From assembly GCA_002792115.1 (NCBI GenBank), contig PFNQ01000013.1, positions 7,236 to 71,235 of the forward strand: a DNA stretch of 64,000 nucleotides, written 5' to 3'. Source of the DNA: Candidatus Woesearchaeota archaeon CG_4_10_14_0_2_um_filter_33_13. GTDB taxonomy: Archaea; Nanobdellota; Nanobdellia; Woesearchaeales; GW2011-AR9. The notes under the pieces are model-generated. The model saw only the letters and a program-made list of their open reading frames with translations, searched no databases and was not told where the DNA came from. This document shows, in pieces, positions 11,857-44,671 of the stretch. The position numbers and the translations under genes were made by a program. Position 1 is the stretch's first letter, and every line of letters starts with the position of its first letter.

Positions 11857-11877
11857 GATACTTTAACATCTGTAAAA

Positions 11878-13500: not shown

Positions 13501-13504
13501 AAAA

Positions 13505-15047: not shown

Positions 15048-15151
15048 ACTACTCTCCTTATAACTGTTTTTTATATTTTTTTCGCAAGAGATATAACTTT
15101 AGGTCGCTTTTTTTCATAATTATTATAAATAAAAAGCGTAACCTTTGTTCC

Positions 15152-18146: not shown

Positions 18147-18147
18147 T

Positions 18148-19290
18148 TTAACTCAATCTTTTATAAAATTCTAACGTTCTTTTCCAGCTAAATCTATTTT
18201 TGATACGTTCTTTAATTATTTTTGATGATTTTCTGAACAAATAATTATCTTTAATAAATTGTTTAATTCTAATCTTTATCACTTCTGGTTGATTTGGAGT
18301 AATTAAGTTAATGGTGTTTCCTTCCCCAACAATTTCTTTAGTTCCCCCCACATTCGTAGCAATAATCGGCAGACCCATAGCAGCAGCTTCTAACACAGAA
18401 GTGGGCATCCCTTCAGAGTAAGAAGGGTTGACAAAAATGTCAGTTATTGAAAGCGATTCTATTACTCCTTTTTGATCTTTGTTACCAACAAAAAGCGCAT
18501 TGACTCTTTGTTCTTTAGCTAAGTTCTCTAATTCTTTGCGATAAGGACCATCTCCAACAATCAAAAGAGTTACACCAGAAATACCTTTACAAGCTAAAAT
18601 TAGATCCTGTACTCCTTTAGCATAAATTAATCGTCCAACAAAAGTAATTATTTTGTTTTCTTTTGGAATTCCTAATTTCTGTCTTAAATCTGTTTTAACT
18701 TTTTTGTATTTTGTAACATCAATAGAATTAGGGATGTAAACCACTTTTTTTGGATTTGCTCCCATTTTAATGGCAAAATCACAGCAAGGTTTACTTATGC
18801 CAATAACTTTCCACGCCGATTTAAAGATTAACCTTCCTAAACTTTGATCATAAATCCACGCAATTAATTGTATTAATTTGTTATCATGTTTTACAAAAAC
18901 ATTACCATGTTCCGTATGTATTAGTTTAATTTTATTTTTCTTAGCAAACCACCATCCTAACAGTGTGCTTAAAAAGAACCTTGTTTGTGTGTTAATATAA
19001 TCATATTTCTGATCACCTAATTCTTTTAACATTCTTTTTGTTTGCTTGTTCCATCTAGGAATAGAATAAGTCTTCCCTAAAACACTTTTTGATGGAATGC
19101 GGTATATGTTAATGCCTTGATAGTTCTCATAAGAAGGAAGCCTACCATAATTAAAAGTTAGGACATCGGCTTGTATGCCCCTTTTAATAAGACCCGTGCT
19201 TAGATTTAGGACATAATTTTCTAATCCTCCAGCATAAGGATAAAAATTAGTGGTAAAGAACAGTATCTTCATTTTTCTCTCTTTTCTCAC
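18148..19290 (-). CDS. Glycosyltransferase, GT4 family
   Basis: Canonical EGMPTSVLEAAAMGLPIIATNVGGTKEIV motif. Confidence 0.85.
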   Translation of the reverse strand: MRKERKMKILFFTTNFYPYAGGLENYVLNLSTGLIKRGIQADVLTFNYGRLPSYENYQGINIYRIPSKSVLGKTYSIPRWNKQTKRMLKELGDQKYDYINTQTRFFLSTLLGWWFAKKNKIKLIHTEHGNVFVKHDNKLIQLIAWIYDQSLGRLIFKSAWKVIGISKPCCDFAIKMGANPKKVVYIPNSIDVTKYKKVKTDLRQKLGIPKENKIITFVGRLIYAKGVQDLILACKGISGVTLLIVGDGPYRKELENLAKEQRVNALFVGNKDQKGVIESLSITDIFVNPSYSEGMPTSVLEAAAMGLPIIATNVGGTKEIVGEGNTINLITPNQPEVIKIRIKQFIKDNYLFRKSSKIIKERIKNRFSWKRTLEFYKRLS

Positions 19291-19613
19291 TTTTTCTCTA
19301 AAGCAATTTTTCTAACCATATCTTCCATCTTTAGTTGTAATCTTTTAATATTTGTATAATTATAAAAAGATAGGGCAATCAAGAAAAGTATTCCTAACAC
19401 CGTCAATAAATCAATCGGACGAGACAAAGACATTTTCCTGATGAAATAGTCCAATGTGTATGAGAATAGAGTTAAAAGCATAAAACTTATCCAAACCAAA
19501 AACCACCCGATCATTTCCTTAACAGTAAATTCGTTTTTTCTAAATTTTAAGTACGTAACGTAAAGCATAAAGACACCAAATAAAATTCCTACAATTTGAA
19601 TTGTCGATACCAT
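19287..19613 (-). CDS. Small 3-TM membrane protein (DUF2304-like, GT2-associated)
   Basis: 108 aa hydrophobic; overlaps GT4 stop and precedes GT2, typical DUF2304 arrangement. Confidence 0.4.
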   Translation of the reverse strand: MVSTIQIVGILFGVFMLYVTYLKFRKNEFTVKEMIGWFLVWISFMLLTLFSYTLDYFIRKMSLSRPIDLLTVLGILFLIALSFYNYTNIKRLQLKMEDMVRKIALEKK

Positions 19614-19614
19614 C

Positions 19615-20271
19615 TTATCTTCTTAACCTCCACACCAGCATATTAAAAGCAATTGTTATTCCATCTAAGAAGGTTGTACCTTTATAATTGTCATGGTATA
19701 TCGTTTGAATGGGGATTTGGGTATATTTCAACTTTGATCTACCAAGATTGGCAATCATTTCTGTTTCTACAGAATAATCACTGGATTGCCATCTGATTAA
19801 CTTATAAGTGTGATCAGTAAATGCCCTGTACCCAGATTGTGTGTCATCTAATTTAATTTTAAACAACAATCTTGTCCAGATATTAAGAAACCAGTTGCCA
19901 AATTTTAATATTAATGGCATGTTTTTTGATCTTTTTCTAACACCAAAAACAAGGTCATAAGTTTCTAAGAGTTTGACGAATGTAGGGATCTCTGCGGGGT
20001 CATGTTGCCCATCAGAGTCCATGACAATAATCTTTTTAGCCCCACACTTTATTGCATAATCACAGCCAGTTTTTAAAGCAGAACCTTTGCCTAAGTTAAT
20101 GATATGTTGTAAAGAATGGACATTTGGAATGGTTTTGATTAATCTGGAAGTATTATCTGTGCTTCCATCATCAATTACAATAATATTTTGGGCATATTTC
20201 TTTGTTTCTTCTAAAGTAAAAACTATCCTTCTTTCTTCATTATAAGCAGGAATAACAATCCATTCATTCAT
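19615..20271 (-). CDS. Dolichyl-phosphate hexose synthase-like glycosyltransferase, GT2
   Basis: IVIPAYNEERRI ... IIVIDDGSTDNT ... DSDGQH GT2 motifs; 218 aa soluble DPM/DPG-synthase type. Confidence 0.8.
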   Translation of the reverse strand: MNEWIVIPAYNEERRIVFTLEETKKYAQNIIVIDDGSTDNTSRLIKTIPNVHSLQHIINLGKGSALKTGCDYAIKCGAKKIIVMDSDGQHDPAEIPTFVKLLETYDLVFGVRKRSKNMPLILKFGNWFLNIWTRLLFKIKLDDTQSGYRAFTDHTYKLIRWQSSDYSVETEMIANLGRSKLKYTQIPIQTIYHDNYKGTTFLDGITIAFNMLVWRLRR

Positions 20272-20356
20272 AGATCATAACTCAAAATATTGCTTTATAA
20301 AGATTATGAACTATAAAACCTCTCTGAAGTAAGAAGATAATAAAAAATAACGTTTC

Positions 20357-23260
20357 CTAGCAGTTGTAATCAACGATCCACGTTGAAATTTTCCCGCCAG
20401 TAAACTGTTGTACTTCATCAAACTTTTCAAAGCACTTCGTTCCAAGACCATCAAAAAAGAATAACTTGGTAAAGGTGCTGTACGCCAGCGACGTGTCAGA
20501 TAACAACGCAGCATACCCATTACCATTTGGAATCAGAATTAAAGATGAACCGATAGTCTGACCATCAAATTTTTGTTCTTTTAACTCTTTTCCTTGTACA
20601 TAAACTAAAGATGCTGGGGAAACATTTTGTCCGTTATTAGTTCTAACTTTAGCAATGGCTTCATTTAAATTGATATCTAATGTAATGGATCCTTGCTGAG
20701 TATTGATCTGGCAGGTTACATTTGCTGAACTACTATTCTGACATTGATTTAACCCAGAATGATAGCTTGGCCATGAAGCAATCCATTGATCGGCATCTGT
20801 GGTTTGTATTTCATAACGAATCCTGTCTGCTTCATCTTCAGTTAAGGAGAAATTTTTAGTTAAATAATTAATTGCATCATCTTTTTTCATATTTTTTGTA
20901 TTTTGATACATAACTGCTTTATCAAAATCCCAGCTTCCAAAATGTCCCCAAACTCCTGCTTTACCCACCATATCTTCTGAGGTGATGTAATAATCGGTTG
21001 GTGCTTCGCAGTGTGTGTATTGAATAACGGAAGCCACTTGATTAGCATTTAATCCATAATCATTTAAGGTTTCAATCGCAGCTTCTTTCTTTTCTACGAT
21101 TATTTTGTTGATTATCTTAATCTCTTTTGGCGTGTCATTGAAAATATTATCTAACTCTATGAATGCACTGTTTTGCCCGCAATTTAACATTCTGATTATG
21201 CCTACTGTTGTTTTTTCATCGCTTGTCAAAAGTGATTTCCCGACCCAATGGGCATCCCATCCAACTTGCATACCTCCATCAAAGGTTGTTGGTCGCTCAG
21301 CTATCGCCATAAACCAGTATCCAAAATCCCACCACGAAGTTATCACTGCTTCAGCGGGAGCTTCGCTATTGATCTTAGTTAAAGTGTTATGCCAAGCATC
21401 ATTCATCGCTGGTACAGAATTGTATGCAGTTGAATATCCTGCCATGCTTGGTTGAATTAATAGCACTCCTAACAATAAAAATACAACCACCTTTGAAATA
21501 GTTAAATTAAGATTTAGTTCTTTATTAGTCCAATTACTAATATAACTCCAAGCTAATCCCAAGAATGCACCGAATAATATTGCCACTATCGGTGCAACCA
21601 TTAAAATAAACCTAACTCCCCTTGTTGTAGTATATAATGCTATAGCTAACCAAAAAGATAAAATTAATGCAATCATCAAATTATTGTTTGATTTATCTTT
21701 AACATTTCTTAACATCAATAAAATAATTCCTACTATCGCTAGAGTAAAAATTAGTTTTCCTCCTACTTGGCTGATTACTTGTGAGAATGGAGCAACATTA
21801 AGCTCTGCTACTGTAGTTAAGATATTTGGCCATAAGGAATCTATTGCTACTGCCTTTAAGTGGATTAATGAATTTATTGGTTCAAACAATCCGCTGTAAA
21901 AAGAGTTAAACGAACTAAATATAGAAACAAAAAGTCCTGAACTTATGAGGTAGGTTCCAAATAGGGACACATTTGAGAAAAAATCATCTTTCTTAATTAG
22001 AGTTTTAAGAGCCTTAGAATTTCTAATTAATTCATAAGCAAAGTATGAAAGCATAGATACTGCAAATATGGAAAAGAAATACCACCAAGCTCCCCACACA
22101 AAACTAAGTAATCCTGTTGCTAAACCAGCTAAGACAGTCCAACCTAATTTCTTCTTTAAATCCTTGCAAGTAATCGCTTCAATTAATAACCACAAAATCA
22201 GTATTGGAAAGAAGACAACGTAAACATCTGTGTCTGAACTTTCTCCGGTGGTTCTGGAAACAAAAAAAGCTGAGACTGCAATTAAAATAGCAACAAAAAA
22301 TCCACCAACATTATTTTTAGTGATTTTTTTACCGATAAAGAATGCAGGAATAACTGTTAATGCTGAGAAGATAGTTCCTATTAAAAAGAAACTAAACATC
22401 AATGGTACGTCTGAAAAAGAACTTAAAAATCGATGTAAAAATGCTCCAAACCAGGTGTGAAAATTTCCCCCTTCTGGTGAACCAGTTGGGTAGGCTCGAT
22501 AAGAATCATAATACTTTCCATCTTTTATTGAATTACCCGGATGACCATTTTCTAATCTATATTCTGTTTGTCTGTAAAAATAATAAGGGTCAATTCCTAA
22601 CAGATATAAAGTTCCCTGATCATCTCTAAACTGATCTTTATATTGTTGTGATACTTGCTTAATATCATTATTAACCTGGTCCTTGTTTTTCTCTTTTAAT
22701 TTTTGCAATTCATTCTGGACTAATGCATCTCTGTTTTGTTGTGGCAAGTTAGGATACTGTTGATTGATCTGGGCGGTAACTTGATTTTGATAAAAATTAT
22801 TAACTGTATTGTCGGCCCATTCATCGGTTATTGACATTCTTAATGGCATGGTTCGTAGATAAACAGAAGCAAACATAGCAATTAAAATAAATAATGCGGG
22901 GATGATCCATTTAGCATTAGTTTTAGCAAAAGTGGTAATTTTTGAAAAATCTACAGAAAGTTCGTCATCATTAACTTCTTTTTTGTGATGTTTATGTTCC
23001 GGATGGGAATGTTTATCTTTATCAGAAGAAGTTAAGCTTTTAAAAAATCGTTTAGCTTTATTTTTTATCTCAGAAAAATCTATTGATAAATCCTCATTAT
23101 CCTTATGAAACTCTTTTTTAACAACTTCTACTTTCCCAAGAGTGATCGTTTTTTTGTCACTATGATGTTGCAAAGTGTCTTCTGTTTTTGTTTCTTCCTG
23201 CTCCTCAGTATTAGAATCAATCTTAATATCTTTAGCCAATTTTCCACCCCAATAATCCAT
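20357..23260 (-). CDS. aglB: Archaeal oligosaccharyltransferase AglB (STT3 family)
   Basis: Polytopic N-terminal domain with EL1 motif GIDPYYFYRQTE and catalytic SWWDFGYW (WWDYG) motif plus large C-terminal globular domain. Confidence 0.85.
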   Translation of the reverse strand: MDYWGGKLAKDIKIDSNTEEQEETKTEDTLQHHSDKKTITLGKVEVVKKEFHKDNEDLSIDFSEIKNKAKRFFKSLTSSDKDKHSHPEHKHHKKEVNDDELSVDFSKITTFAKTNAKWIIPALFILIAMFASVYLRTMPLRMSITDEWADNTVNNFYQNQVTAQINQQYPNLPQQNRDALVQNELQKLKEKNKDQVNNDIKQVSQQYKDQFRDDQGTLYLLGIDPYYFYRQTEYRLENGHPGNSIKDGKYYDSYRAYPTGSPEGGNFHTWFGAFLHRFLSSFSDVPLMFSFFLIGTIFSALTVIPAFFIGKKITKNNVGGFFVAILIAVSAFFVSRTTGESSDTDVYVVFFPILILWLLIEAITCKDLKKKLGWTVLAGLATGLLSFVWGAWWYFFSIFAVSMLSYFAYELIRNSKALKTLIKKDDFFSNVSLFGTYLISSGLFVSIFSSFNSFYSGLFEPINSLIHLKAVAIDSLWPNILTTVAELNVAPFSQVISQVGGKLIFTLAIVGIILLMLRNVKDKSNNNLMIALILSFWLAIALYTTTRGVRFILMVAPIVAILFGAFLGLAWSYISNWTNKELNLNLTISKVVVFLLLGVLLIQPSMAGYSTAYNSVPAMNDAWHNTLTKINSEAPAEAVITSWWDFGYWFMAIAERPTTFDGGMQVGWDAHWVGKSLLTSDEKTTVGIIRMLNCGQNSAFIELDNIFNDTPKEIKIINKIIVEKKEAAIETLNDYGLNANQVASVIQYTHCEAPTDYYITSEDMVGKAGVWGHFGSWDFDKAVMYQNTKNMKKDDAINYLTKNFSLTEDEADRIRYEIQTTDADQWIASWPSYHSGLNQCQNSSSANVTCQINTQQGSITLDINLNEAIAKVRTNNGQNVSPASLVYVQGKELKEQKFDGQTIGSSLILIPNGNGYAALLSDTSLAYSTFTKLFFFDGLGTKCFEKFDEVQQFTGGKISTWIVDYNC

Positions 23261-24022: not shown

Positions 24023-24880
24023 TCATAAATATATGATTGATAAGGTTAATCCCACCCATATTGCCATCCCTATAACTAAAGGCTTATTTTTAAATACCCT
24101 TTCCGGATGTCTAGCAACATCAGAACCATTATTTATTAAGTTCAAGAATCCAAAGATTAAATAGATCCCTAAAGGGACAGTATAGATGAGAGTTGGGTGT
24201 TCACTAAGAAAGGAGTATAAACAATACGAAACAATTAATAATATCGTAGAGAAGTTCACTAATTGGTTCGTCAGCTGTTTGTTGTAATGTTCTAATATTG
24301 CTCTTGTTCTCTTACCATCGGTTTTCATTAAGCTTAAATCTGCCTGCCTTTTTCCTACAACCAAAAACAATGCTAAGAAAAAAGGGCACAAAATCAACCA
24401 CGGAGAAACCCAAACATCAACTGCTAAAGCTCCAGATAACGCTCGTAAGGCAAACAAACTAGCAATAGTCAGGATGTCTGCGAACAAAACATTCTTTAAG
24501 TAAAGAGTATAAATCTGCGTTAGTACAAATAACAAGATTACAATTAATAAAAATGTTAAGTTAATTGATTTTGCTATCAACAAACCGATTATTAGTAAAA
24601 GCAATAATGCCAAAATTGCTTTATTTAAGCCAATCTTTCCAGAAGCAAGAGGACGGTTTTTCTTCTCTGGGTGCAGGGCATCTTTTTTTCTGTCAACTAA
24701 ATCATTAATAATATATCCTGCCGAAGAAACAAAAGATAGTGAGAAGAAGGCTAAAATGGAAATTAAGAATAGTTCTCCATCAAAAAGTTTCTCAGAAAAG
24801 ATAATCGCCAGGAATACAACTAGGTTTTTGTACCATTGTCTGATTCGCATCAGGTTCAAATAATCTTTGATTTTAGTCAT
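24023..24880 (-). CDS. UbiA-family prenyltransferase (DPPR-synthase-like / DGGGP-synthase-like)
   Basis: YIINDLVDRKKDALHPEKKNRPLASG matches ND..D...D..HP.K..RP.A.G of polyprenyl-phosphate phosphoribosyltransferases; 8 TM. Confidence 0.6.
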   Translation of the reverse strand: MTKIKDYLNLMRIRQWYKNLVVFLAIIFSEKLFDGELFLISILAFFSLSFVSSAGYIINDLVDRKKDALHPEKKNRPLASGKIGLNKAILALLLLLIIGLLIAKSINLTFLLIVILLFVLTQIYTLYLKNVLFADILTIASLFALRALSGALAVDVWVSPWLILCPFFLALFLVVGKRQADLSLMKTDGKRTRAILEHYNKQLTNQLVNFSTILLIVSYCLYSFLSEHPTLIYTVPLGIYLIFGFLNLINNGSDVARHPERVFKNKPLVIGMAIWVGLTLSIIYL

Positions 24881-26309
24881 TTTCTAGAGGAAGATAAATC
24901 TTATAATTGCACGTTTTAATGGTTTTATTAAAGATTTCTTTGTTCTCAATCTCAATTTGGGCCAATAATTCTGCCTTTTCAGATACACATTCGTTATCCT
25001 TAGGCTTACAAATTAGATCACAATCATTGATAAAAATAAGTTGGTATGGTTCTTCTAATTTCCCGTAGATTTTTGCTGCAAATTCCATGCCGTCTAAAGT
25101 GATAATCTTATTATCTAAAAAAGAAACAAAAGATGGGTCTGACGAGACAATTGTTCCAGTAATATTTTTTTCGGTAATAATCTGTTGAATCTCTGTCCTG
25201 AAGGCCGGAGCACTTTCAAAACTAAGGTTAGCTGGCATTGGTACTAGTAATAGCAATAATACAACAAGCAAAAATGCTTTTGGTTTAATAAATGGCTTTT
25301 GCTGTTGTTTTAAATTCTCATAAATCATTAGAATTACTTTTACAGCAAAGAATGCTAAGAAGGGTATAATTATCACCAAGTATCGTGGCTCCTTTCTTGG
25401 AACAATAAAAATAAAATAAACTAGAGTGAGGATCGTTATTGTTAGCGTGATTATACTATGACCTGTTACATCTATTTTCCTCCTAAAGAAAAGATATCCA
25501 TAATAAATTGAGAATAGGAATATTGGGTTACTTAAAAAGAAATGTAAGAAGTAGTAACTCCAACCTTGGCCATATAACCAGGTTGCTGTTCCTACAATCA
25601 TTGATCCAGACAAGAATGGTTCCAAAATGTTTCCGTACTTATACTGATTTAAGATTAAGTATGGGATTAATGGTAATAAAAAACCAACGCCCAAAAAGAA
25701 GATATTTTTAGTCTTCCCCCATAACGTTTCTTTGTTGAATAAAAGAACAATTGCTACTCCTGCAATGTACGTCCAAAGCGTAAATTTAGTTAAGAAAGCC
25801 AAACTTAATAATACTCCAGCGAGAAATATCTTTGTTTTATGTTGATGACCTAATAACAAATAAAGGCCAAGTAACCCAAAAGTCATCGCCAATGGTTCAG
25901 TAAGAATCATTCCGGTATGCATCAGGAATATAGGAGTTACACTAAAGATTAATGATGAGAAGAATGCGGTTTTCTTGTCAGAGACCTGTTTAACAATCTT
26001 GTAAAAAGCAGCAATTGCGATTAGAGAAAATAATAGGTCCAAAATTTTTCCAAAAGCAATTGGGTTTAACCCTAGTTTCCAAATTAAACCGATTAAGAAT
26101 GGATGGATCAACGGACGAAATGATTCCCAAATTCCAATTTCTCCTCCAGTGAAGATATATTTGCCCATACCAATATACACGTGGGCGTCCCACCACAATG
26201 GCCAATTAATTGATAAGTAAAAGATTCTGATCAGAAAACTAAATACTAGAACAAAAAAAAAAGGCTTTTGTTTAATTAGGTTAAACATTCTTTGCAAGTA
26301 TTGTTTCAT
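24873..26309 (-). CDS. GT-C fold membrane glycosyltransferase (PMT_2/ArnT-like)
   Basis: Polytopic, N-terminal loop WPLWWDAHVYIGMGKYI; overlaps UbiA gene by 8 bp. Confidence 0.5.
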   Translation of the reverse strand: MKQYLQRMFNLIKQKPFFFVLVFSFLIRIFYLSINWPLWWDAHVYIGMGKYIFTGGEIGIWESFRPLIHPFLIGLIWKLGLNPIAFGKILDLLFSLIAIAAFYKIVKQVSDKKTAFFSSLIFSVTPIFLMHTGMILTEPLAMTFGLLGLYLLLGHQHKTKIFLAGVLLSLAFLTKFTLWTYIAGVAIVLLFNKETLWGKTKNIFFLGVGFLLPLIPYLILNQYKYGNILEPFLSGSMIVGTATWLYGQGWSYYFLHFFLSNPIFLFSIYYGYLFFRRKIDVTGHSIITLTITILTLVYFIFIVPRKEPRYLVIIIPFLAFFAVKVILMIYENLKQQQKPFIKPKAFLLVVLLLLLVPMPANLSFESAPAFRTEIQQIITEKNITGTIVSSDPSFVSFLDNKIITLDGMEFAAKIYGKLEEPYQLIFINDCDLICKPKDNECVSEKAELLAQIEIENKEIFNKTIKTCNYKIYLPLEND

Positions 26310-26312
26310 TAT

Positions 26313-27050
26313 TTAATTTTCTTCTGTTAGACAGATCTCAGAGTTTTCTAGTGAGTTACAGATCTGTTCTTGTAACTGTTCTTTACTTACAACACCTTCA
26401 AACTTTCTGTTATCAATGATTAGGGTGGGATATTTCTTAACAGTAAATTGTTCCATTACAATATCTACCATTGGTTCACTGTTCTTTAAATCAACATTAA
26501 TTGGAAAGACTAATACTTGTTCCCCAAATTTTTTCTTGAAGTATGTAAGTATGGTTCCTTGGTTTGGACAAGAAGGACAGTCAGCGGAGTAGAAGTAAAT
26601 AATTGGTACAATATCTAAATTACATTTTTTCTTACTTTCTAAGGCTAATAACCAGTAACGGAGGTTGTCGATGGCATAACGCCGCATGATAATGGTTTTT
26701 CTGGCATCAGAAACTTTTTGTTCTTCTTCATAAGCAACAACCTCACTAAGTGATTCAGAAAGGTCGACAACGGCCTCCTTAAGAGTTGTAGATAAGATTG
26801 GACAATTATCGGCATTATTAAATGCGTTGAGATAAAGATATTGCATCTGTAAACTTAAGTATTTAGTTTCTTGTGCTAAATTAACGTCTTCTATTAAGTT
26901 ATATCTATAATCATCTAAAACAAACCCTAATGTTATTCCTAATGAGAATATTAACAAAGTTATCACTCCTGCGATAATATACTTATCCTTACTTATTCTT
27001 CTAAAATTATTTTGATCATTAGTTTTGTCTTGTTTTTTTTCACTTACCAT
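26313..27050 (-). CDS. Membrane-anchored thioredoxin-fold protein
   Basis: N-terminal TM then CPSCP (CxxC) thioredoxin-like motif. Confidence 0.45.
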   Translation of the reverse strand: MVSEKKQDKTNDQNNFRRISKDKYIIAGVITLLIFSLGITLGFVLDDYRYNLIEDVNLAQETKYLSLQMQYLYLNAFNNADNCPILSTTLKEAVVDLSESLSEVVAYEEEQKVSDARKTIIMRRYAIDNLRYWLLALESKKKCNLDIVPIIYFYSADCPSCPNQGTILTYFKKKFGEQVLVFPINVDLKNSEPMVDIVMEQFTVKKYPTLIIDNRKFEGVVSKEQLQEQICNSLENSEICLTEEN

Positions 27051-28333
27051 TTTAGTTTTTTACCTCTAGCAAATTCAAATAGTGATAATAGTAATATCAC
27101 TCCTTTAAGCAAATAATAAAAAAAGAAATAGGGGATTAAAGGAATAAATCCAAACTTAGTCATTCTTTCATTAGCATTTTTATGGGCTAAATAAAAAAAA
27201 GATGCACCAACGACAAAAATAAAGATAATTAAAAAACTGCGCCTAAAATCCATCTGCAAGAAATTAATCAAGTTAAATTTGAAACTTAATGTTTTAAGAT
27301 AAGGTATTATGTTAAATTTTATTGCAATCAAATTCTTTACTCGATTAATCATTGGCAAGAAGATTAAATAAACCGCAATAGTTATCCCTGTTATTGCCAA
27401 TATGTATCCCGCAACATTCTTAATCATCTGCATCATGCCGAAATCACCGTACTTTTTATTGGCGATTAATTCCTTGTATTGGTTAACACAAATTATACTC
27501 CCCAAATACCATCTCCTTCTTTGTCGGTAAAAGGGTTTAACTTCTTTTGGTGCAGTAGTATGAACATAACCATCAAAACATTGCTTTATTTTGTAATGAT
27601 GTTTTTGTAGTCTATAAGCAATCTCCTGATCTTCAGTTATGCTTTTAACATCAAATCCTCCTAATTCTCGGATGATCTTTGTTCTGTATAATGAGAATGG
27701 GCCTGGTGCCACATATAAAGAATCTAATCTGCTAGAAAGTCTTGCAATCAAGATAATTACTAAGTACTCTAACCACTGCACACGTTGTAGTAAATTCTTT
27801 GGTTTGTCAACTTTCATTGCGGGGGTAACAATAGCTAATTTGGGATCATTTTCTTGATCATAGATATTTAACATTTTTCTTAATGTCTGTGGATCTACAA
27901 AAGAATCGGCGTCCAGACAAGCAAAAAAATCTCCCTTCGTTAATTCTAAGGCCTTGTTCATAGATGCAGCCTTTCCTATGTTTTTGTGAGAGATTAACTG
28001 AAAATGTTTTTTATTTTGAATGTATTCCGCGATTATTTTTTTTGTATCGTCCTTAGAACCATCATCAATAACAATAACCTCTAATTTATCTTTTGGGTAT
28101 TCTATTTCATTGATTGATTGTAGTGTTCTCAGTATTGTTTTCTCTTCATTGTACGCAGGGACAAGAATAGAGACAAATGGAAATTTGTTTATTTGAGTGG
28201 AAGATTTTTCTTTTTTGAAAAATTCTCGATTATCCAGATAAACCAATAATAAGAATATTGAAAAGTACAATGATATAGCATACACAATCCATAATAGCAT
28301 ATTTACAAATATATTCATCAGTTTGTACTCCAA
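27044..28333 (-). CDS. Processive GT2 glycosyltransferase (CESA/chitin-synthase-like), membrane integrated
   Basis: ILVPAYNEE, VIDDGSKDDT, DADS and QRRRW (QxxRW) motifs plus flanking TM helices. Confidence 0.75.
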   Translation of the reverse strand: MEYKLMNIFVNMLLWIVYAISLYFSIFLLLVYLDNREFFKKEKSSTQINKFPFVSILVPAYNEEKTILRTLQSINEIEYPKDKLEVIVIDDGSKDDTKKIIAEYIQNKKHFQLISHKNIGKAASMNKALELTKGDFFACLDADSFVDPQTLRKMLNIYDQENDPKLAIVTPAMKVDKPKNLLQRVQWLEYLVIILIARLSSRLDSLYVAPGPFSLYRTKIIRELGGFDVKSITEDQEIAYRLQKHHYKIKQCFDGYVHTTAPKEVKPFYRQRRRWYLGSIICVNQYKELIANKKYGDFGMMQMIKNVAGYILAITGITIAVYLIFLPMINRVKNLIAIKFNIIPYLKTLSFKFNLINFLQMDFRRSFLIIFIFVVGASFFYLAHKNANERMTKFGFIPLIPYFFFYYLLKGVILLLSLFEFARGKKLKW

Positions 28334-28344: not shown

Positions 28345-29751
28345 TTAGTCAGCTTTCCCAAACACCCACACCTCAGAATCTTCGTTGGAATGGACTAATT
28401 TAAATCTTTCGTTTTTAAGTAAGAAAAGCAGACCTTGTTCTTTGGGCAAGATTTCTTTCATATATTTGTTAACATATATAATAGAAATGTTGTGTTCTTC
28501 AAGTATTGGAAAAAGTTCGGTAATATACAATGATGCTAATGCTTTATACGTTAGATCTAAGGAAGAAGAATCTTTTTGTTTAAACAACGTTTCCCTTCCA
28601 GAAAAATAATTGATAATAAATGTATTCTCCGGCAAAGATAAGACCTTGCCTTCTTGAGGTATGTTTTGCTGAACCCAATACAAAGATTCTATGTCTCCAG
28701 CAGTTGGTCCATTTTCTTTGACTCTATCTAAATATGTTATTGTGGAGAAAAGCAGACCTAACACTAATAACAAAAACGTGAACTTTTTAAGAGAAATTAA
28801 GTTCCAATCTCGTTGAAATAGTTTTATAATTCCTGTGGCTGCAAAGAAAGAAGTTAACAGGCTTAAATGAAAAATTGCTTGGCTGTTTAACAAATATGCT
28901 CCCAAGGCGAGAGGTAAGAAAAGGTAGAAAATGTAAAAATTTTTCTTCTTCCAAGTTGTGGTTAAACCAATTAACGCTAAGGCTAAGGTAAATATTTTTA
29001 TGCCACTAACACTACCAAAGTCAGATATTAAACTGGCAATCTTCATCTGAAAGTTGAAAGGACCTAGAATGAATGGAATCTTTAAAACCAAATAATTAAA
29101 TAAAGCAATTATTGTAATTGAAGAGATAATCACATAGCCCTGCAAACTAAAATCTTTTTTTATCAAATATAAGTAGCAAGCTAAAATCAGAATCATAAAT
29201 ATGCTACTATATAGGTCAAAAAAAGTTGCCAAAAGAAAAGGAATTATTGATAAATGGTGTTGCCAATTTTCCTTTTGGTAAAAGTAAAATCCTAATAATA
29301 CAAGAGTAATGTAAAAGGAATATGCTGATAATGTACTAAATGTGTAAATAAATGTTGGAGATAGTGATACCATTAACAAAAAGAAGAAAATAACTTTATC
29401 TGAGATAGTTGTTTTTTCAGTTATTTTGAAGAAAAGCCATAATGAAACGATGGCTAGTCCTAATGGCAGTAATATTAACAAGCTCGTGGAAAATAATTCT
29501 GTCGCCAACTGTAACGGCAGATAATAAAATGTGTTAATGTCCCAAGATTGTGCCTTTAAGAGATGGTAATAACTTTCTTCTCCCATCAATATTGGTTTGC
29601 CCAATGAATGATTATACAGTGAAGGAAGTAACAAGACTACTAAAAATAAACATATGAAAAATGTTCTTTGGTTTTTTAGAAAAAAATTGAATATTTTATT
29701 GTTACTGCTAATAATGGTTTGTTCAATTTTAGTATCTTCGGTTTGACTCAT
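28345..29751 (-). CDS. STT3/AglB-like GT-C membrane protein with degenerate catalytic motif (paralog A)
   Basis: EL1-like EESYYHLL; C-terminal region VLSLPENTFIINYFSGRET aligns to the WWDYG region but lacks WWD. Confidence 0.45.
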   Translation of the reverse strand: MSQTEDTKIEQTIISSNNKIFNFFLKNQRTFFICLFLVVLLLPSLYNHSLGKPILMGEESYYHLLKAQSWDINTFYYLPLQLATELFSTSLLILLPLGLAIVSLWLFFKITEKTTISDKVIFFFLLMVSLSPTFIYTFSTLSAYSFYITLVLLGFYFYQKENWQHHLSIIPFLLATFFDLYSSIFMILILACYLYLIKKDFSLQGYVIISSITIIALFNYLVLKIPFILGPFNFQMKIASLISDFGSVSGIKIFTLALALIGLTTTWKKKNFYIFYLFLPLALGAYLLNSQAIFHLSLLTSFFAATGIIKLFQRDWNLISLKKFTFLLLVLGLLFSTITYLDRVKENGPTAGDIESLYWVQQNIPQEGKVLSLPENTFIINYFSGRETLFKQKDSSSLDLTYKALASLYITELFPILEEHNISIIYVNKYMKEILPKEQGLLFLLKNERFKLVHSNEDSEVWVFGKAD

Positions 29752-29752
29752 T

Positions 29753-31243
29753 TTATTTTCCGATCAATTTACATTTTATTAAATAAATTTTTGTTTCTTG
29801 ATTATAAATCAATTCAAAACAATTCTTATCTAAGTAAGGTAATTCTTCAATTCCATACCTCTGTTTTGATTTTGAGGTTATTACAATATAATTAATTCCA
29901 TACGCATCGTAAATGCTTAGGGCCTGTGTTTGGAATTTAGCAGTAAACAGAGCGTTCAAATTATCAAATCTTTGATTTACTTTTTTTATTAAATTAAACT
30001 GGTCATCCATCAAATTTTTTCTGTTTCCATAATAGCTTACCAAGCTGCCCTCTCTAAGATTAGATGCCACCACGCTTTTTTCAGGAGTATTTTGCTTTAA
30101 CCAGACAAAACTATTTACTTGTTCTGTTGTTGGAGTATCTTGATCAAGAGAAAAACTTAATGCTGGGGGAACAATTGTCAAAAGTAATATGATTGTTAAA
30201 ATTAAAGTTATCTTTTTAGTGTAATTGTAGAATTTTGTTTTTTTAATATAATCTGTAAGGTCAACATAAAATACTGAAAACAATATTGCTAAGATTATGG
30301 CAAAAAAACTTAATGATAATTTGAATTCTATTAGCTTTAACCATGATAATATCGTTGTTGAAATGACAAAACTAATCAATAAAAATGCCTTTTGATTTTT
30401 AAGATTAAACAAAGAATTATAGACCACATATATTCCTGTAACAAAGGGAATTATACCAACTAAAACTATTGCCTGTGCTAATGATAATTGTGGATAGTAT
30501 TGAGCTAGAATCTGTTGTGGGATGTTTTGCCAAATAAAGTTTATCCCTTCTGTCAATAATGTCTGTTTGTAAAATAGAAATTGCGTCCAAAGGTAAAGGA
30601 AAAAAGAGAAGATAATGACTTCTGTTTCAGCCCGGTTTATTCTTTTCTTTTCAATTGCTAACAAAACCAAATAGATTAGGTATCCTCCTAAAATTAAGAT
30701 TGTCCCAGAGCTGGTTAAGGAAAGGCAAAACATGGAAAAGATGTACAAATACAAGTAAAATTCTTCTTTAATATTTAAGAAGGCATAGATTGAAAGAAAC
30801 AGAAGCGGCAAAAATAGTGTTTGTGGCGTAAATGAATCTGTTGAGTATAATATTGGTAGGAATCCAGCTATTACGGCCGATAATATTGATGCTTGCTGGT
30901 TATCTGTTAATTTCTTGCTTATCAAATATACTAATGGAACAATTAAAGCGATTAACAAATTTGGTAAAATTTTGGCAACTAGTTCTAAAGGAAGGATTAG
31001 AGCAAAAAATGCTGCAAGATAGTGAAATAATGGTAGAAATACATTAGTTCTTCCTCCATAAGATAGAGGGTCATTGTATAAAGGCAATCCTGTTGAAGAA
31101 ATATGTTCCACCTGTCTAAGATGAAAGTAAGAATCGTATGTTAAGTTTGGCATAAAAAAAGCAAGGACTAATCTTATCGTTAAAGTTAGCATAAATATTG
31201 CCAATAACCAGTATTTGGTATTTTTACCCATAAACATTAACAA
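29753..31243 (-). CDS. STT3/AglB-like GT-C membrane protein with degenerate catalytic motif (paralog B)
   Basis: EL1-like TYDSYFHLRQVEH; VVASNLREGSLVSYYGNRKNLMDD aligns to V.SWWDFGYW....R.T..D of the canonical AglB. Confidence 0.45.
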   Translation of the reverse strand: MLMFMGKNTKYWLLAIFMLTLTIRLVLAFFMPNLTYDSYFHLRQVEHISSTGLPLYNDPLSYGGRTNVFLPLFHYLAAFFALILPLELVAKILPNLLIALIVPLVYLISKKLTDNQQASILSAVIAGFLPILYSTDSFTPQTLFLPLLFLSIYAFLNIKEEFYLYLYIFSMFCLSLTSSGTILILGGYLIYLVLLAIEKKRINRAETEVIIFSFFLYLWTQFLFYKQTLLTEGINFIWQNIPQQILAQYYPQLSLAQAIVLVGIIPFVTGIYVVYNSLFNLKNQKAFLLISFVISTTILSWLKLIEFKLSLSFFAIILAILFSVFYVDLTDYIKKTKFYNYTKKITLILTIILLLTIVPPALSFSLDQDTPTTEQVNSFVWLKQNTPEKSVVASNLREGSLVSYYGNRKNLMDDQFNLIKKVNQRFDNLNALFTAKFQTQALSIYDAYGINYIVITSKSKQRYGIEELPYLDKNCFELIYNQETKIYLIKCKLIGK

Positions 31244-31317
31244 AAAGACACTTTTTTTTATAAATGTGTATGTTCAAGCTCAGATATATTTATATCTTTT
31301 AAAATACTATTAATTTT

Positions 31318-32913: not shown

Positions 32914-33897
32914 TTGATTATGCGTAAAGTAGTTACTTTAGGTGGCGGAACTGGCAATTTTACTGTTCTAAGAGGACTTAAGAAATATGATCTTGATCTC
33001 TCTGCGATTGTTTCTATGGCTGACGATGGTGGTAGTACAGGGATATTGCGAGATGAATTAGGAGTCTTGCCTCCAGGAGATGTTCGTCAATGTTTAGTGG
33101 CGTTATCTGATTCTAGTAGGTTAATGCGTAGCTTGATGAACTATCGTTTTGAAAATGGTTGTTTGCAGGGCCATAGCTTTGGTAATTTATTATTATCTGC
33201 TTTAGAGAAGGTTACTGGTAGTTTTGAAAAGGCGGTGGAAGAAGCAGGAAAAATTCTTTCCATTAAAGGAAAAGTTATTCCCGTAACTACTAATCCCGTA
33301 AGGTTACAAATGCTTTTACCCAATGGTAAGATCTTAAGGGGAGAAAGTGAAATATTGATGTCGAAAAAATCCCTTGTTGGTTTTCAAAGTTTATATTTAG
33401 AACCATTTCCTAAAGCCAATCCTCATGCTATTGATGAAATACTTAACGCCGATTTAGTTGTTTTTGGTCCGGGTGGTTTGTATACTAGTTTAATTCCTTT
33501 ACTTTTAGTTGAAGGTGTGGGGAAGGCCCTGAGGGAAACTAAAGCCAAGAAAGTCTTTGTACTTAACCTGATGAATAAAAAAGCCCAGACTCCAAATTTT
33601 AAAGCAAACAGTTATTTGCAAGAAATTAAAAAATTTATGGGCAAAGATGTTTTTGATTACATTCTGATAAATAATGCTAGGCCAGATCAAGAGTTAATTT
33701 TCAAGTATTCAGAAGAGAGCGAATTTATTGATAATGATCTAGTTAAAGATTCTCGAGTCCTTGAAACAGATTTGATTGATAAAGAATCTGCGGAATATAG
33801 TTCTAGTGATGCCTTGGCAAAAACTAGAGCATTAATTCGTCATGATCCTAAAAAGCTTGCAATAGTGTTAATGAATATAATGGATGAGAAATGTTAA
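32914..33897 (+). CDS. YvcK/CofD-family (UPF0052) protein
   Basis: TLGGGTGNF ... SMADDGGSTGILRDELGVLPPGDVRQCLVAL matches YvcK/CofD signature. Confidence 0.75.
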   Translation: MIMRKVVTLGGGTGNFTVLRGLKKYDLDLSAIVSMADDGGSTGILRDELGVLPPGDVRQCLVALSDSSRLMRSLMNYRFENGCLQGHSFGNLLLSALEKVTGSFEKAVEEAGKILSIKGKVIPVTTNPVRLQMLLPNGKILRGESEILMSKKSLVGFQSLYLEPFPKANPHAIDEILNADLVVFGPGGLYTSLIPLLLVEGVGKALRETKAKKVFVLNLMNKKAQTPNFKANSYLQEIKKFMGKDVFDYILINNARPDQELIFKYSEESEFIDNDLVKDSRVLETDLIDKESAEYSSSDALAKTRALIRHDPKKLAIVLMNIMDEKC

Positions 33898-44627: not shown

Positions 44628-44671
44628 CTTAACTATTAGGTAGTGGTTCTTATGGTTAGGAGGTTTTCAAG

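What the first reader, a model, noticed from the sequence alone, without database searches (positions are those of the whole stretch)
24023..28333. UbiA (DPPR-synthase-like) prenyltransferase + GT-C + membrane thioredoxin + processive QxxRW GT2 block
The UbiA protein motif NDLVDRKKDALHPEKKNRPLASG resembles polyprenyl-phosphate phosphoribosyltransferases (mycobacterial DPPR synthase) at least as much as DGGGP synthase. It overlaps a PMT_2/ArnT-like GT-C gene by 8 bp, which suggests a lipid-phospho-pentose donor used by a GT-C enzyme.

Next comes a TM-anchored CPSC thioredoxin-like protein. Its stop overlaps a membrane-integrated processive GT2 (QRRRW) that could make a beta-linked polymer. This combination is not a described archaeal pathway.
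Basis: inference. Interest (0 to 1): 0.6.

Follow-up and report, generated by a model that had tools for sequence, protein, structure and literature searches.

The report
Archaeal lipid-ribose glycan operon
A tiny symbiotic-type archaeon (Woesearchaeota) carries a conserved six-gene operon that probably builds a cell-surface sugar polymer and decorates it with ribose from a lipid carrier, a route so far described only in bacteria such as the tuberculosis bacillus.

Summary
In detail: all four genes, the quoted motifs and the 8-nt overlap are there. They form the 3' part of a six-gene, 7.2-kb operon (31243→24023, minus strand). Its order is two STT3-like GT-C paralogues, a PgaC/BcsA-type membrane GT2, a membrane thioredoxin-like protein (CPSC facing out), a third GT-C, then UbiA.

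The UbiA is a polyprenyl-phosphate phosphoribosyltransferase of the Mycobacterium tuberculosis (Mtb) Rv3806c type, not a DGGGP synthase. It scores 225 bits on that model against 46–74 on DGGGP synthase models. Eleven of 13 Rv3806c substrate-binding residues are conserved.

The whole gene order recurs in at least 24 species-level Woesearchaeota genomes. In 17 of those a PAP2 phosphatase follows UbiA, as Rv3807c follows Rv3806c; the window has none.

Sampling anchored on the thioredoxin-like gene shows GT2–Trx–GT-C is the invariant core (48/52 and 49/49 loci). UbiA is nearby in 36/45.

Bacteria have an equivalent described pathway (the Mtb DPA pathway; Kelly et al. 2024 three-component systems). 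I found no archaeal description. This is a new variant of a known kind. The sugar, acceptor, flippase and thioredoxin role remain inferred.

The parts
29753..31243 (-). GT-C-fold membrane glycosyltransferase, STT3/AglB-related paralogue A (496 aa). It is the first gene of the operon.
   Evidence: Weak Pfam PMT_2 match and NCBIfam archaeo_STT3 N-terminal match. hhalign gives 98.2% probability to the AglB membrane domain and 99.5% full-length probability to the next gene. The first-loop acid D/E37 is conserved and D58 is near-invariant. It is the first gene of the block in at least 24 genomes.
28345..29751 (-). GT-C-fold membrane protein, STT3/AglB-related paralogue B (468 aa). It has no Pfam hit.
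   Evidence: hhalign gives 99.5% probability to paralogue A, 95.9% to AglB and 92% to the 478-aa GT-C. E59 of the ESYYHL first-loop motif is kept in 22 of 24 orthologues. It starts 1 nt after the upstream stop.
27044..28333 (-). Membrane-integrated GT2 of the processive synthase type (PgaC/IcaA, BcsA, NodC-like). The probable true start is the ATG at 28318 (424 aa).
   Evidence: Pfam Glycos_transf_2 at 121 bits and Glyco_trans_2_3. NCBIfam PgaC_IcaA at 176.5 bits, aligned over the full length but below the 422 cutoff. PDB BcsA match at E=4.5e-15 across the GT domain through QxxRW. DDGS, LDADS, TED and QRxRW are at least 93% conserved in 31 orthologues.
26313..27050 (-). Single-pass membrane protein made of an N-terminal TM helix, a three-helix stalk and an outward-facing thioredoxin domain with CPSC.
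   Evidence: Weak Pfam TraF and Thioredoxin matches. In the AF2 model the Trx domain has pLDDT above 90. Foldseek best matches are thioredoxins (probability 1.0, TM-score 0.7-0.8 to the target). C158, C161, the cis-Pro P208 and four further Cys are invariant, and the TM-helix residues are invariant too. The charge bias places the N-terminus inside. It is the most conserved protein of the block. Its start overlaps the GT2 stop by 7 nt.
24873..26309 (-). GT-C-fold glycosyltransferase (478 aa, PMT_2/GT22-like) with a small Cys-bearing C-terminal outer domain. It is the candidate user of the lipid-phospho-pentose.
24023..24880 (-). UbiA-fold polyprenyl-phosphate 5-phosphoribosyltransferase (PPPRS, Rv3806c type). 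It is the last gene of the operon.
   Evidence: NF008977 at 225.5 bits (cutoff 234) against 46-74 bits for DGGGPS-type models. PDB 8j8j at E=1.7e-24. Rv3806c residues R22, K28, Y70, N73, D77, K87, R90, Y138, K143 and K191 are identical, and Y157 is F here. These positions are at least 93% conserved in 83 family members. NCBI names the identical protein decaprenyl-phosphate phosphoribosyltransferase.
31244..31317 (.). A 74-nt divergent intergenic region between the operon and radB, holding A/T-rich TATA-like elements (TTTATAAAAAAAA about 20 nt before the first start codon).
   Evidence: Read directly from the sequence. No archaeal promoter model was available, and the sigma-70 scan is uninformative. 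The assignment is tentative.

Best explanation
The finding is the 3' two-thirds of a six-gene operon (31243→24023, minus strand) conserved in Woesearchaeota (DPANN archaea). The operon most likely assembles one extracellular glycoconjugate.

Proposed mechanism:
1. [quoted passage not shown] This is the reaction of Mtb Rv3806c and Citrobacter ORF15.
2. The 5-phosphate is removed. Most relatives have an adjacent PAP2 phosphatase for this; this genome must use an enzyme encoded elsewhere.
3. The lipid-phospho-ribofuranose is flipped by an unidentified carrier. No epimerase is encoded nearby, so the sugar is ribose rather than arabinose or xylose.
4. Outside the membrane, the translationally coupled 478-aa GT-C, and possibly the two STT3-like GT-C paralogues, transfer the pentofuranose to an acceptor.
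5. The most likely acceptor is the beta-linked glycan that the co-transcribed PgaC/BcsA-type GT2 polymerises from a nucleotide sugar and exports. A surface protein is the alternative acceptor.
6. The thioredoxin-like protein is a fixed partner of the GT2–GT-C core. Its invariant TM helix suggests packing against one of them. Its outward CxxC probably forms or manages disulfides in the Cys-bearing outer domains of the GT-Cs or in the acceptor.

Shown here: gene content, folds, catalytic motifs, operon structure and conservation. Inferred: every substrate, the acceptor, the link between the donor and a particular GT-C, processivity of the GT2, and the redox role.
For: - **UbiA is PPPRS-type.** HMM and PDB ranking support this. 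Eleven of 13 functional residues of Rv3806c are conserved, including the 5'-phosphate binders K28 and Y70, which PMC10994848 says are not conserved in ordinary UbiA prenyltransferases.
- **PAP2 linkage.** A PAP2 with a complete catalytic motif directly follows UbiA in 17 of 24 full blocks. This mirrors Rv3806c-Rv3807c.
- **Lipid enzymes.** Woesearchaeota are reported to lack GGGPS and DGGGPS.
- **GT-C478.** It is a high-confidence GT-C whose structural neighbours all use polyprenyl-phosphate-linked sugars.
- **Packing.** The six genes have gaps or overlaps of 11 nt or less.
- **Conservation.** The order is kept in at least 24 species-level genomes and in Trx-anchored metagenome loci: GT2 upstream 48/52, GT-C downstream 49/49, UbiA within 5 kb 36/45. 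A rearranged variant keeps PAP2-UbiA next to a GT-C and keeps GT2-Trx together (L054, L077).
- **GT2.** The synthase motifs are conserved and the protein aligns over its full length with PgaC/IcaA.
- **Bacterial precedent.** PPPRS + GT-C post-polymerisation pentofuranosylation is described in PMC11127046.
Against: - No activity has been measured.
- The NF008977 score is 8.5 bits below NCBI's equivalog cutoff.
- Two Rv3806c residues (Q135, K208) do not align exactly.
- The window has no PAP2, no HAD fused to UbiA, no recognisable flippase in the operon and no DprE1/E2-type genes.
- Nine of 45 Trx-anchored loci have GT2-Trx-GT-C with no UbiA nearby, and one keeps PAP2 without UbiA. The GT-C therefore does not strictly require an adjacent UbiA.
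- About half of the close UbiA orthologues sit in other contexts, next to DUF362 or an FAD oxidase.
- The GT-C model is no closer to arabinofuranosyltransferases than to mannosyltransferases.
- A Dol-P-hexose synthase-like GT2 lies 4 kb away and could supply a different donor.
- A cellulose-synthase-like GT2 fold does not prove processivity. The archaeal GT2 in PDB 6yv7 also matches; from memory, that entry is a non-processive mannosyltransferase.
Confidence: 0.6

Rival explanations
1. The core machine is GT2–Trx–GT-C and does not depend on the UbiA. The GT-Cs use an ordinary dolichyl-phosphate-hexose, for example from the PpgS/DPM-like GT2 at 19615-20271. The UbiA product serves another GT-C or another pathway, and sits beside the block only as part of a glycosylation island.
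For: GT-C478 follows Trx in 49 of 49 loci, but UbiA is nearby in only 36 of 45, and nine loci truly lack it. UbiA orthologues occur in many other contexts. The best structural neighbours of the GT-C are Dol-P-Man-dependent enzymes. A Dol-P-sugar synthase-like GT2 with its DUF2304 partner is in the adjacent AglB cluster.
Against: The GT-C and UbiA are translationally coupled by an 8-nt overlap. Their adjacency is kept in 80% of loci at 45-60% identity. The rearranged variants (L054, L077) still keep PAP2-UbiA directly beside a GT-C of this family. Fold similarity among GT-C enzymes does not track the donor sugar.
Confidence: 0.2
2. The operon is a protein-glycosylation system rather than a polysaccharide system. 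The three STT3/PMT-like GT-Cs glycosylate secreted or surface proteins. The thioredoxin-like protein keeps acceptor cysteines or folding in check, as Ost3/Ost6 or TUSC3 do for eukaryotic OST. The GT2 builds a lipid-linked oligosaccharide, not a polymer.
Against: None of the three GT-Cs has the STT3 C-terminal domain with WWDYG; they end in domains of about 100 aa. The Trx protein has one N-terminal TM followed by the Trx domain, not the Ost3/6 layout, and Foldseek ranks plain thioredoxins first. The GT2 aligns end to end with the PgaC/IcaA synthase model and keeps TED and QRxRW.
Confidence: 0.15
3. The UbiA is a prenyltransferase of core lipid or quinone metabolism (DGGGP synthase or similar), and its position next to glycosyltransferases has no functional meaning.
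For: It belongs to Pfam UbiA. JGI pipelines label homologues '4-hydroxybenzoate polyprenyltransferase'. It scores just under the NF008977 cutoff.
Against: DGGGPS-type models score only 46-74 bits against 225.5. The PRPP 5'-phosphate and pyrophosphate binding residues of Rv3806c are conserved. PAP2 adjacency mirrors Rv3806c-Rv3807c. Woesearchaeota are reported to lack the preceding lipid enzyme GGGPS.
Confidence: 0.05

Closest known systems
Mycobacterial decaprenyl-phospho-arabinose (DPA) pathway: Rv3806c (UbiA/DPPR synthase), Rv3807c (PAP2), DprE1/DprE2, and the Emb/Aft GT-C arabinofuranosyltransferases
   Same: The UbiA-fold phosphoribosyltransferase has the same substrate-binding residues. 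In most relatives a PAP2 phosphatase gene directly follows it. GT-C enzymes are encoded alongside. From memory, the Mtb locus aftB–ubiA–Rv3807c–glfT2 also combines a GT-C, UbiA, PAP2 and a polymerising GT2.
   Different: No DprE1/DprE2-type epimerase was found, so the predicted sugar is ribose, not arabinose. The window has no PAP2. The GT-Cs belong to other sequence families (PMT_2/STT3-like, not Emb/Aft). The GT2 is a membrane-integrated synthase with QxxRW, unlike GlfT2. The host is an archaeon, so the lipid is presumably dolichol-type. A thioredoxin-like subunit is present.
Bacterial three-component pentofuranose glycosylation systems (Citrobacter youngae ORF15/ORF14/ORF12; Kelly et al. 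2024, PMC11127046)
   Same: The logic is the same: a PPPRS makes polyprenyl-P-ribofuranose from PRPP, and a GT-C adds the pentofuranose outside the membrane to a finished polymer. Ribose is the default sugar when no epimerase is present.
   Different: There the phosphatase is a HAD domain fused to the PPPRS; here it is a separate PAP2 in relatives and absent in the window. There the flippase is a MATE protein; none is recognisable here. There the GT-C is GT136 with a CBM; here there are three GT-Cs of other families. There the backbone comes from an ABC-transporter or Wzy pathway; here a synthase-type GT2 is in the same operon. No thioredoxin-like component is described there.
Pseudomonas aeruginosa pilin D-arabinofuranosylation (PsPA7_6245-6251 plus TfpW)
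   Same: It has homologues of Rv3806c and Rv3807c together with a GT-C that acts outside the membrane. It shows that the pathway can target a protein (bioRxiv 10.1101/2020.04.19.049825).
   Different: It has DprE1/E2 homologues. TfpW is a 646-aa GT-C with a TPR domain. There is no GT2 synthase and no thioredoxin-like gene.
Synthase-dependent exopolysaccharide systems (PgaC/IcaA poly-GlcNAc, BcsA cellulose, NodC, hyaluronan and chitin synthases)
   Same: The GT2 has an N-terminal TM, a GT-A domain with D, DxD, TED and QRxRW, and C-terminal TM helices. It aligns over its full length with the PgaC/IcaA model. It is immediately followed by a small single-pass partner gene, as with PgaD or BcsB.
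   Different: It scores well below every equivalog cutoff (176 against 422 for PgaC). The partner is a thioredoxin-fold protein. It is co-transcribed with three GT-C enzymes. The product is unknown.

Membership tests
Polyprenyl-phosphate phosphoribosyltransferase (PPPRS/DPPR synthase, Rv3806c type; NCBIfam NF008977) | Best-scoring family model, with a score at or above the curated cutoff | tested here: inconclusive
   NF008977 is by far the best model (225.5 bits, E=9.5e-67, aligned 4-284 of 285), but the curated cutoff is 234. NCBI nevertheless gives the identical protein this name.
Polyprenyl-phosphate phosphoribosyltransferase (PPPRS/DPPR synthase, Rv3806c type; NCBIfam NF008977) | Mg2+/pyrophosphate site: N73, D77 of NDxxDxxxD and the K/R cluster R22, K87, R90, K143, Y138 (PMC10994848) | tested here: met
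   The equivalents are N59, D63, R12, K73, R76, K129 and Y124, all identical in the alignment and at least 93% conserved in 83 family members.
Polyprenyl-phosphate phosphoribosyltransferase (PPPRS/DPPR synthase, Rv3806c type; NCBIfam NF008977) | Phosphoribose-specific residues not shared with ordinary UbiA enzymes: K28, Y70, Y157 (5'-phosphate) and Q135 (ribose O3); also K191 (lipid phosphate) and K208 | tested here: inconclusive
   K18, Y56 and K177 are identical. Y157 corresponds to F143, a variant the paper reports in some mycobacteria. Q135 aligns to T121, with Q122 adjacent. K208 aligns to A194, with R193 adjacent. Four of six are met and two are shifted by one position.
Polyprenyl-phosphate phosphoribosyltransferase (PPPRS/DPPR synthase, Rv3806c type; NCBIfam NF008977) | Transfer of ribose-5-P from PRPP to polyprenyl phosphate | not testable with these tools
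   This needs a membrane assay with PRPP and farnesyl-, undecaprenyl- or dolichyl-phosphate, as in PMC11127046.
Digeranylgeranylglyceryl phosphate (DGGGP) synthase | Match to DGGGPS family models or structure better than to other UbiA subfamilies | tested here: not met
   NF009522 scores 56.7 bits and NF009521 46.2 bits (cutoffs 353 and 296); the generically named prenyltransferase model NF009523 scores 74.2 (cutoff 269). PDB DGGGPS 6m31 scores E=4e-9 against 1.7e-24 for Rv3806c.
Mycobacterial DPA (arabinose) pathway | DprE1 (FAD_binding_4 oxidase) and DprE2 (SDR reductase) epimerase pair linked to the UbiA | tested here: not met
   No FAD_binding_4 protein was found among the window ORFs scanned. 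The only SDR epimerase (6245-7210) is 17 kb away in a nucleotide-sugar cluster. ORFs beyond 53.7 kb were not scanned. The rest of the genome is unseen.
Mycobacterial DPA (arabinose) pathway | PAP2 phosphatase (Rv3807c-like) next to the UbiA | tested here: not met
   tblastn with two orthologous PAP2 proteins finds nothing in the 64-kb window. PAP2 is present directly after UbiA in 17 of 24 full blocks in relatives. Rv3807c is the one dispensable gene of the Mtb pathway.
Three-component pentofuranose systems (Kelly et al. 2024) | PPPRS, a dedicated flippase (MATE or SMR/GtrA-like) and a GT-C encoded together | tested here: inconclusive
   PPPRS and GT-C are adjacent. No MATE, SMR or GtrA-like gene is in the operon. 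A Wzx-like gene and a DUF2304 gene lie in the neighbouring AglB cluster.
Three-component pentofuranose systems (Kelly et al. 2024) | GT-C belongs to CAZy GT136 | not tested
   No GT136 sequence was available to compare. Pfam places the protein with PMT_2/GT22.
GT-C glycosyltransferase superfamily | Multi-TM GT-C fold with a conserved acidic residue in the first outer loop | tested here: met
Oligosaccharyltransferase STT3/AglB | C-terminal outer domain with the WWDYG motif | tested here: not met
   The 496-, 468- and 478-aa proteins have only about 100 aa after the last TM and no WWDxG there. The genuine AglB is the 967-aa gene at 20357-23260.
Processive membrane GT2 synthases (BcsA/PgaC/NodC/HAS/chitin synthase type) | GT-A domain with D, DxD, (T/G)ED and Q(R/Q)xRW, flanked by TM helices | tested here: met
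   D91/D95, D141-x-D143, T233-E234-D235 and Q271-R272-x-R274-W275 are at least 93% conserved in 31 orthologues. The protein aligns over its full length with the PgaC_IcaA model (14-381 against 15-375 of 407) and matches BcsA.
Processive membrane GT2 synthases (BcsA/PgaC/NodC/HAS/chitin synthase type) | Membership of a specific product family (equivalog cutoff), and processivity | tested here: not met
   PgaC_IcaA scores 176.5 (cutoff 422.3), CelA 84.7 (cutoff 699) and NodC 75.1 (cutoff 550). Processivity and product cannot be tested with these tools.
Thioredoxin superfamily | Thioredoxin fold with a CxxC active site and a cis-proline loop | tested here: met
   Foldseek gives probability 1.0 and TM-score 0.7-0.8 (normalised to the target) to thioredoxins. 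C158-P-S-C161 and P208 are invariant. The whole-protein Pfam scores are below the Thioredoxin cutoff (20.2 against 23.5), but the TraF match is above its cutoff (30.8 against 23).
OST subunits Ost3/Ost6/TUSC3/MagT1 | N-terminal lumenal Trx domain followed by four TM helices | tested here: not met
   The model shows one N-terminal TM helix, a three-helix stalk and a C-terminal Trx domain. No Ost3/6-type structure appears among the top Foldseek matches. Any resemblance is functional analogy only.

The most novel reading that the evidence does not exclude
Woesearchaeota make a lineage-specific envelope polymer with a dedicated membrane machine. In this reading a synthase-type GT2 extrudes a beta-glycan. 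Three GT-C enzymes then modify or anchor it outside the cell using dolichyl-phospho-ribofuranose made by an Rv3806c-type enzyme. An obligatory outward-facing thioredoxin subunit is integrated into the complex. This would be the first lipid-linked pentofuranose donor pathway in Archaea, the first redox subunit of a synthase/GT-C machine in prokaryotes, and a first molecular handle on the cell surface of an uncultured DPANN lineage.
Probability: 0.35. Interest if true: 0.7.

Novelty: new variant of a known kind. Interest (0 to 1): 0.55.

Why it matters
DPANN archaea such as Woesearchaeota are uncultured, have reduced genomes and probably live attached to hosts. Their surface chemistry is unknown, yet it is central to how they attach. 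This operon is one of the best-conserved multi-gene units around their N-glycosylation locus, which argues that its product is important to the cell.

If the UbiA makes dolichyl-phospho-ribose, the PRPP-to-lipid-to-GT-C pentofuranose route would extend to Archaea. That route is known from mycobacterial arabinan (a drug target) and was recently generalised to Gram-negative O antigens.

There are two practical consequences. It would correct annotation: these UbiA genes are labelled 4-hydroxybenzoate polyprenyltransferase by some pipelines and could be miscounted as lipid-synthesis genes. The invariant GT2–thioredoxin–GT-C triad also suggests a kind of synthase complex not yet described, and this can be tested by heterologous expression.

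Tried and rejected
- **DGGGP synthase or other prenyltransferase for the UbiA.** Rejected on HMM scores, PDB ranking and residue mapping.
- **Arabinose (DPA) pathway.** No DprE1/E2-type genes were found in the window ORFs scanned.
- **PAP2 hidden elsewhere in the window.** tblastn was negative.
- **Second UbiA paralogue in the window.** None.
- **Ost3/6-like identity for the Trx protein.** The architecture and Foldseek ranking do not support it.
- **Sequence search of the GT-C against PDB.** No hits.
- **Bacterial promoter and terminator scan.** At background level and not applicable to an archaeon.
- **tRNA and Rfam scans of the window.** Nothing found.
- **Foldseek against afdb50 for the Trx model.** The library was unavailable.
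- **Literature searches for an archaeal or DPANN description.** Nothing relevant found.
- **UbiA pseudogene in the UbiA-less blocks.** None found.

Full report
**What is there**

The window is a low-GC (about 32%) archaeal fragment. It carries radB, an archaeal-type S2 gene, an MBF1-like HTH gene, TFIIB and a 967-aa STT3/AglB. The UbiA protein is 100% identical to a GenBank protein from 'Candidatus Woesearchaeota archaeon CG_4_10_14_0…'.

The four ORFs of the finding are at the stated coordinates on the minus strand, and the quoted motifs are present. They are not the whole unit. Two more large membrane-protein genes lie directly upstream (29753-31243 and 28345-29751). The six genes run 31243→24023 with junctions of +1, +11, −7, +3 and −8 nt.

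The operon is bounded by divergently transcribed radB, across a 74-nt A/T-rich spacer with TATA-like elements, and by a convergent MBF1-like gene 35 nt after the UbiA stop. Two details of the finding need correcting. The Trx gene's start overlaps the GT2's stop (ATGGTAA), not the reverse. The GT2 most likely begins at the ATG at 28318, giving 424 aa as in all homologues.

**The UbiA protein**

Pfam only says 'UbiA'. NCBIfam ranks the decaprenyl-phosphate phosphoribosyltransferase model NF008977 first, at 225.5 bits aligned end to end. The HAD-UbiA fusion model NF006088 follows at 178 bits. The DGGGPS-type and related prenyltransferase models reach only 46-74 bits. The 225.5 bits fall 8.5 short of the curated equivalog cutoff, although NCBI names the identical protein with this function.

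Against solved structures, the best match is Mycobacterium tuberculosis (Mtb) Rv3806c (8j8j, E=1.7e-24). DGGGPS 6m31 scores 4e-9 and AfUbiA 3e-4.

The cryo-EM study of Rv3806c (PMC10994848) lists the residues that bind Mg2+, the pyrophosphate, the ribose, the 5'-phosphate and decaprenyl phosphate. It states that the phosphoribose-binding sites are not conserved in ordinary UbiA prenyltransferases. I mapped these through the ungapped blocks of the alignment:
- R22, K28, Y70, N73, D77, K87, R90, Y138, K143 and K191 are identical here (R12, K18, Y56, N59, D63, K73, R76, Y124, K129, K177).
- Y157 is F143, a variant the paper notes in some mycobacteria.
- Q135 and K208 fall one position away from Q122 and R193.

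Nearly all of these positions are at least 93% conserved across 83 family members. Woesearchaeota are reported to lack GGGPS and DGGGPS (PMC8421398). I therefore treat the protein as a polyprenyl-phosphate phosphoribosyltransferase (PPPRS) with about 0.8 confidence. The activity itself is untested.

**The other five proteins**

- **The 496- and 468-aa proteins.** They are full-length paralogues of each other (hhalign 99.5%). Both match the membrane domain of the window's AglB (98.2% and 95.9%). They keep an acidic residue in an STT3-like first-loop motif, (D/E)SY(F/Y)H. They lack the STT3 C-terminal WWDYG domain.
- **The GT2.** It has the full signature of membrane-integrated synthases: DDGS, LDADS, TED and QRxRW, all at least 93% conserved in 31 orthologues. 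It aligns end to end with the PgaC/IcaA model (176.5 bits, cutoff 422) and matches BcsA across the GT domain.
- **The 245-aa protein.** It is modelled as an N-terminal TM helix, a three-helix stalk and a classic thioredoxin fold. CPSC, the cis-proline and four further cysteines are invariant. So are many residues of the TM helix itself. The charge distribution puts the N-terminus inside and the Trx domain outside. It is the most conserved protein of the operon, at 60-73% identity to homologues against 42-58% for the GT-C.

**Conservation**

Neighbourhoods of three UbiA homologues (53-68% identity) showed the same order: radB | GT-C, GT-C, GT2, Trx, GT-C, UbiA | MBF1. Two of them had a 152-156-aa PAP2 phosphatase directly after UbiA.

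A scan of one genome per species with a UbiA alignment returned 80 loci. Almost all are labelled Woesearchaeota, Nanoarchaeota or Nanoarchaeia. I searched their ORFs with the window's proteins. Twenty-four loci carry the complete six-gene block, four more are cut by contig ends, and 17 of the 24 have PAP2 next to UbiA. The PAP2 family keeps its full catalytic motif.

The block-linked UbiAs fall mostly in one subclade of a neighbour-joining tree. A rearranged variant (L054, L077) keeps GT2-Trx together and keeps PAP2-UbiA beside a GT-C.

The window and its nearest relatives (L001, L005, L008, L023) have no PAP2 at this position, and none exists anywhere in the 64 kb. In M. tuberculosis the PAP2 gene Rv3807c is the only dispensable gene of the pathway (PMC5964476), so this absence does not rule out the pathway.

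**An independent anchor**

All of that sampling started from UbiA. I therefore also scanned metagenome contigs with the Trx alignment. Among loci with enough flanking sequence:
- The GT2 is immediately upstream in 48 of 52.
- The 478-type GT-C is immediately downstream in 49 of 49.
- UbiA lies within 5 kb in 36 of 45.

The nine exceptions have no UbiA remnant, and one keeps PAP2 without UbiA. Conversely, roughly half of the UbiA orthologues sit elsewhere. They are often beside a highly conserved DUF362 protein (about 24 loci) and an FAD amine-oxidase-like protein (about 12), or beside aglB.

The invariant core is therefore GT2–Trx–GT-C. The PPPRS(±PAP2) module is attached to it in about four-fifths of lineages, including this one, where it is translationally coupled.

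**How it most likely works**

By analogy with two experimentally established bacterial systems, I propose the following:
1. The UbiA makes polyprenyl- (dolichyl-) phospho-ribose-5-phosphate from PRPP on the cytoplasmic face.
2. A phosphatase removes the 5-phosphate.
3. The lipid-sugar is flipped.
4. A GT-C adds ribofuranose to an acceptor outside the cell.

With no epimerase nearby, the sugar would stay ribose, as in Citrobacter youngae O1 (PMC11127046).

The co-transcribed synthase-type GT2 is the obvious source of the acceptor polymer. That would make this a post-polymerisation modification system of the kind Kelly et al. describe, but with a synthase-dependent backbone.

The Trx-like protein's invariant TM helix and its fixed position between GT2 and GT-C suggest it is a subunit of the machine. 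All three GT-Cs have conserved cysteines in their outer domains, so it may act as a dedicated disulfide catalyst.

All substrates, the acceptor, the flippase and the redox role are inference. I put the overall model at 0.6.

**Rivals**

- The GT-Cs may use a Dol-P-hexose, so that the UbiA is only loosely associated (0.2).
- The system may glycosylate proteins, with the Trx acting like Ost3/6 (0.15).
- The UbiA may be an ordinary prenyltransferase (0.05).

**Comparison with what is known, and novelty**

The closest systems are:
- The mycobacterial DPA pathway (Rv3806c, Rv3807c, DprE1/E2, Emb/Aft GT-Cs).
- The bacterial three-component pentofuranose systems (PPPRS-HAD fusion, MATE flippase, GT136 GT-C).
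- P. aeruginosa pilin arabinosylation.
- Synthase-dependent exopolysaccharide systems (PgaC, BcsA).

The present locus shares the PPPRS + GT-C logic and, in relatives, the PAP2. It differs in several ways:
- It is archaeal.
- It lacks an epimerase.
- It has no recognisable flippase.
- It uses GT-Cs of other sequence families.
- It embeds the module in an operon with a synthase GT2, two extra STT3-like GT-Cs and a thioredoxin-like subunit.

Full-text searches found no description of such a pathway in archaea or DPANN. The individual annotations already exist in GenBank ('decaprenyl-phosphate phosphoribosyltransferase', 'glycosyltransferase family 39').

I rate it a new variant of a known kind. 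It is of moderate interest to specialists in archaeal and microbial glycobiology, and the interest would rise if the GT2–Trx–GT-C machine and a ribofuranosylated envelope polymer were confirmed.

Noticed in passing
window 16866-23260 (minus strand): A second glycosylation cluster lies just past the MBF1 gene: AglB/STT3 (967 aa), a PpgS/DPM-like GT2 (218 aa), DUF2304 (108 aa), a GT4 and a Wzx-like flippase. The same AglB–GT2–DUF2304–GT4 series follows the block in many relatives (L004, L005, L008, L023, L048, L052, L065). The GT2 + small membrane protein pair recalls Mtb PpgS (Rv3631) and Rv3632, which is suggested to direct or stabilise PpgS (PMC6487176). That Rv3632 belongs to DUF2304 is from memory. 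This pair could supply a second lipid-P-sugar donor for the GT-Cs.
   Followed up: partly
L043:8718-11918; also L013:6809-7903, L019:8339-9412, L077:5685-6794, L054:1971-3080 and about 20 further loci: A highly conserved DUF362 protein (about 355-369 aa, 500-830 bits between loci) lies within 1 kb of the UbiA orthologue in about 24 of 82 loci. An FAD amine-oxidase-like protein (about 426 aa) often overlaps the UbiA start. This may be a non-homologous counterpart of the DprE1/DprE2 sugar-modifying step. Neither gene is in the window.
   Followed up: partly
L121:7669-10256: One Trx-anchored locus keeps GT-C then PAP2 then MBF1 with no UbiA between them and no UbiA remnant. The PAP2 may therefore have a role beyond dephosphorylating the UbiA product, such as recycling of the lipid carrier.
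   Followed up: partly
window 38775-42119 (minus strand): A 1114-aa protein combines a lamin-tail domain, a bacterial Ig-like domain, CARDB and a weak match to the Nup98-96 autopeptidase S59 domain (E=2.3e-7). It is probably a large surface protein. The S59-like segment is unusual for an archaeon.
   Followed up: no
window 9198-16793: This cluster holds a B12-binding radical SAM enzyme, an FGGY sugar kinase, two nucleotidyltransferases, a glycerophosphodiester phosphodiesterase and a histidine phosphatase, next to the Wzx-like gene. It may make an activated polyol or sugar-phosphate. A B12-radical SAM gene also recurs in relatives' glycosylation islands (locus; L012).
   Followed up: no
window 32914-34585 (plus strand): A CofD/YvcK-family gene overlaps a HAD phosphatase gene by 14 nt, two genes beyond radB. 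The same HAD–CofD–S2–RadB–block order is seen in L001. The HAD is a conceivable substitute for the missing PAP2, but nothing links it to the pathway.
   Followed up: no
L006, L007, L010, L011 and many others; L041: Many contigs carrying this typically Woesearchaeota block are titled 'uncultured Methanosarcinales archaeon', which looks like a generic pipeline label. One contig (L041) comes from a 'Candidatus Nomurabacteria' (CPR bacterium) bin yet carries the archaeal UbiA–PAP2–MBF1 arrangement. These are probably a mislabel and a mis-binned contig.
   Followed up: no
window 43763-51068: A TFIIB gene is followed by a nucleoside and ribose salvage set: a tandem HIT protein, a PRTase, a purine nucleoside phosphorylase, a PfkB kinase and SAH hydrolase. 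An AMP-phosphorylase-like gene lies at 35378-36856. The organism clearly handles ribose phosphates and PRPP-dependent reactions, but no PRPP synthetase was seen in the window.
   Followed up: no
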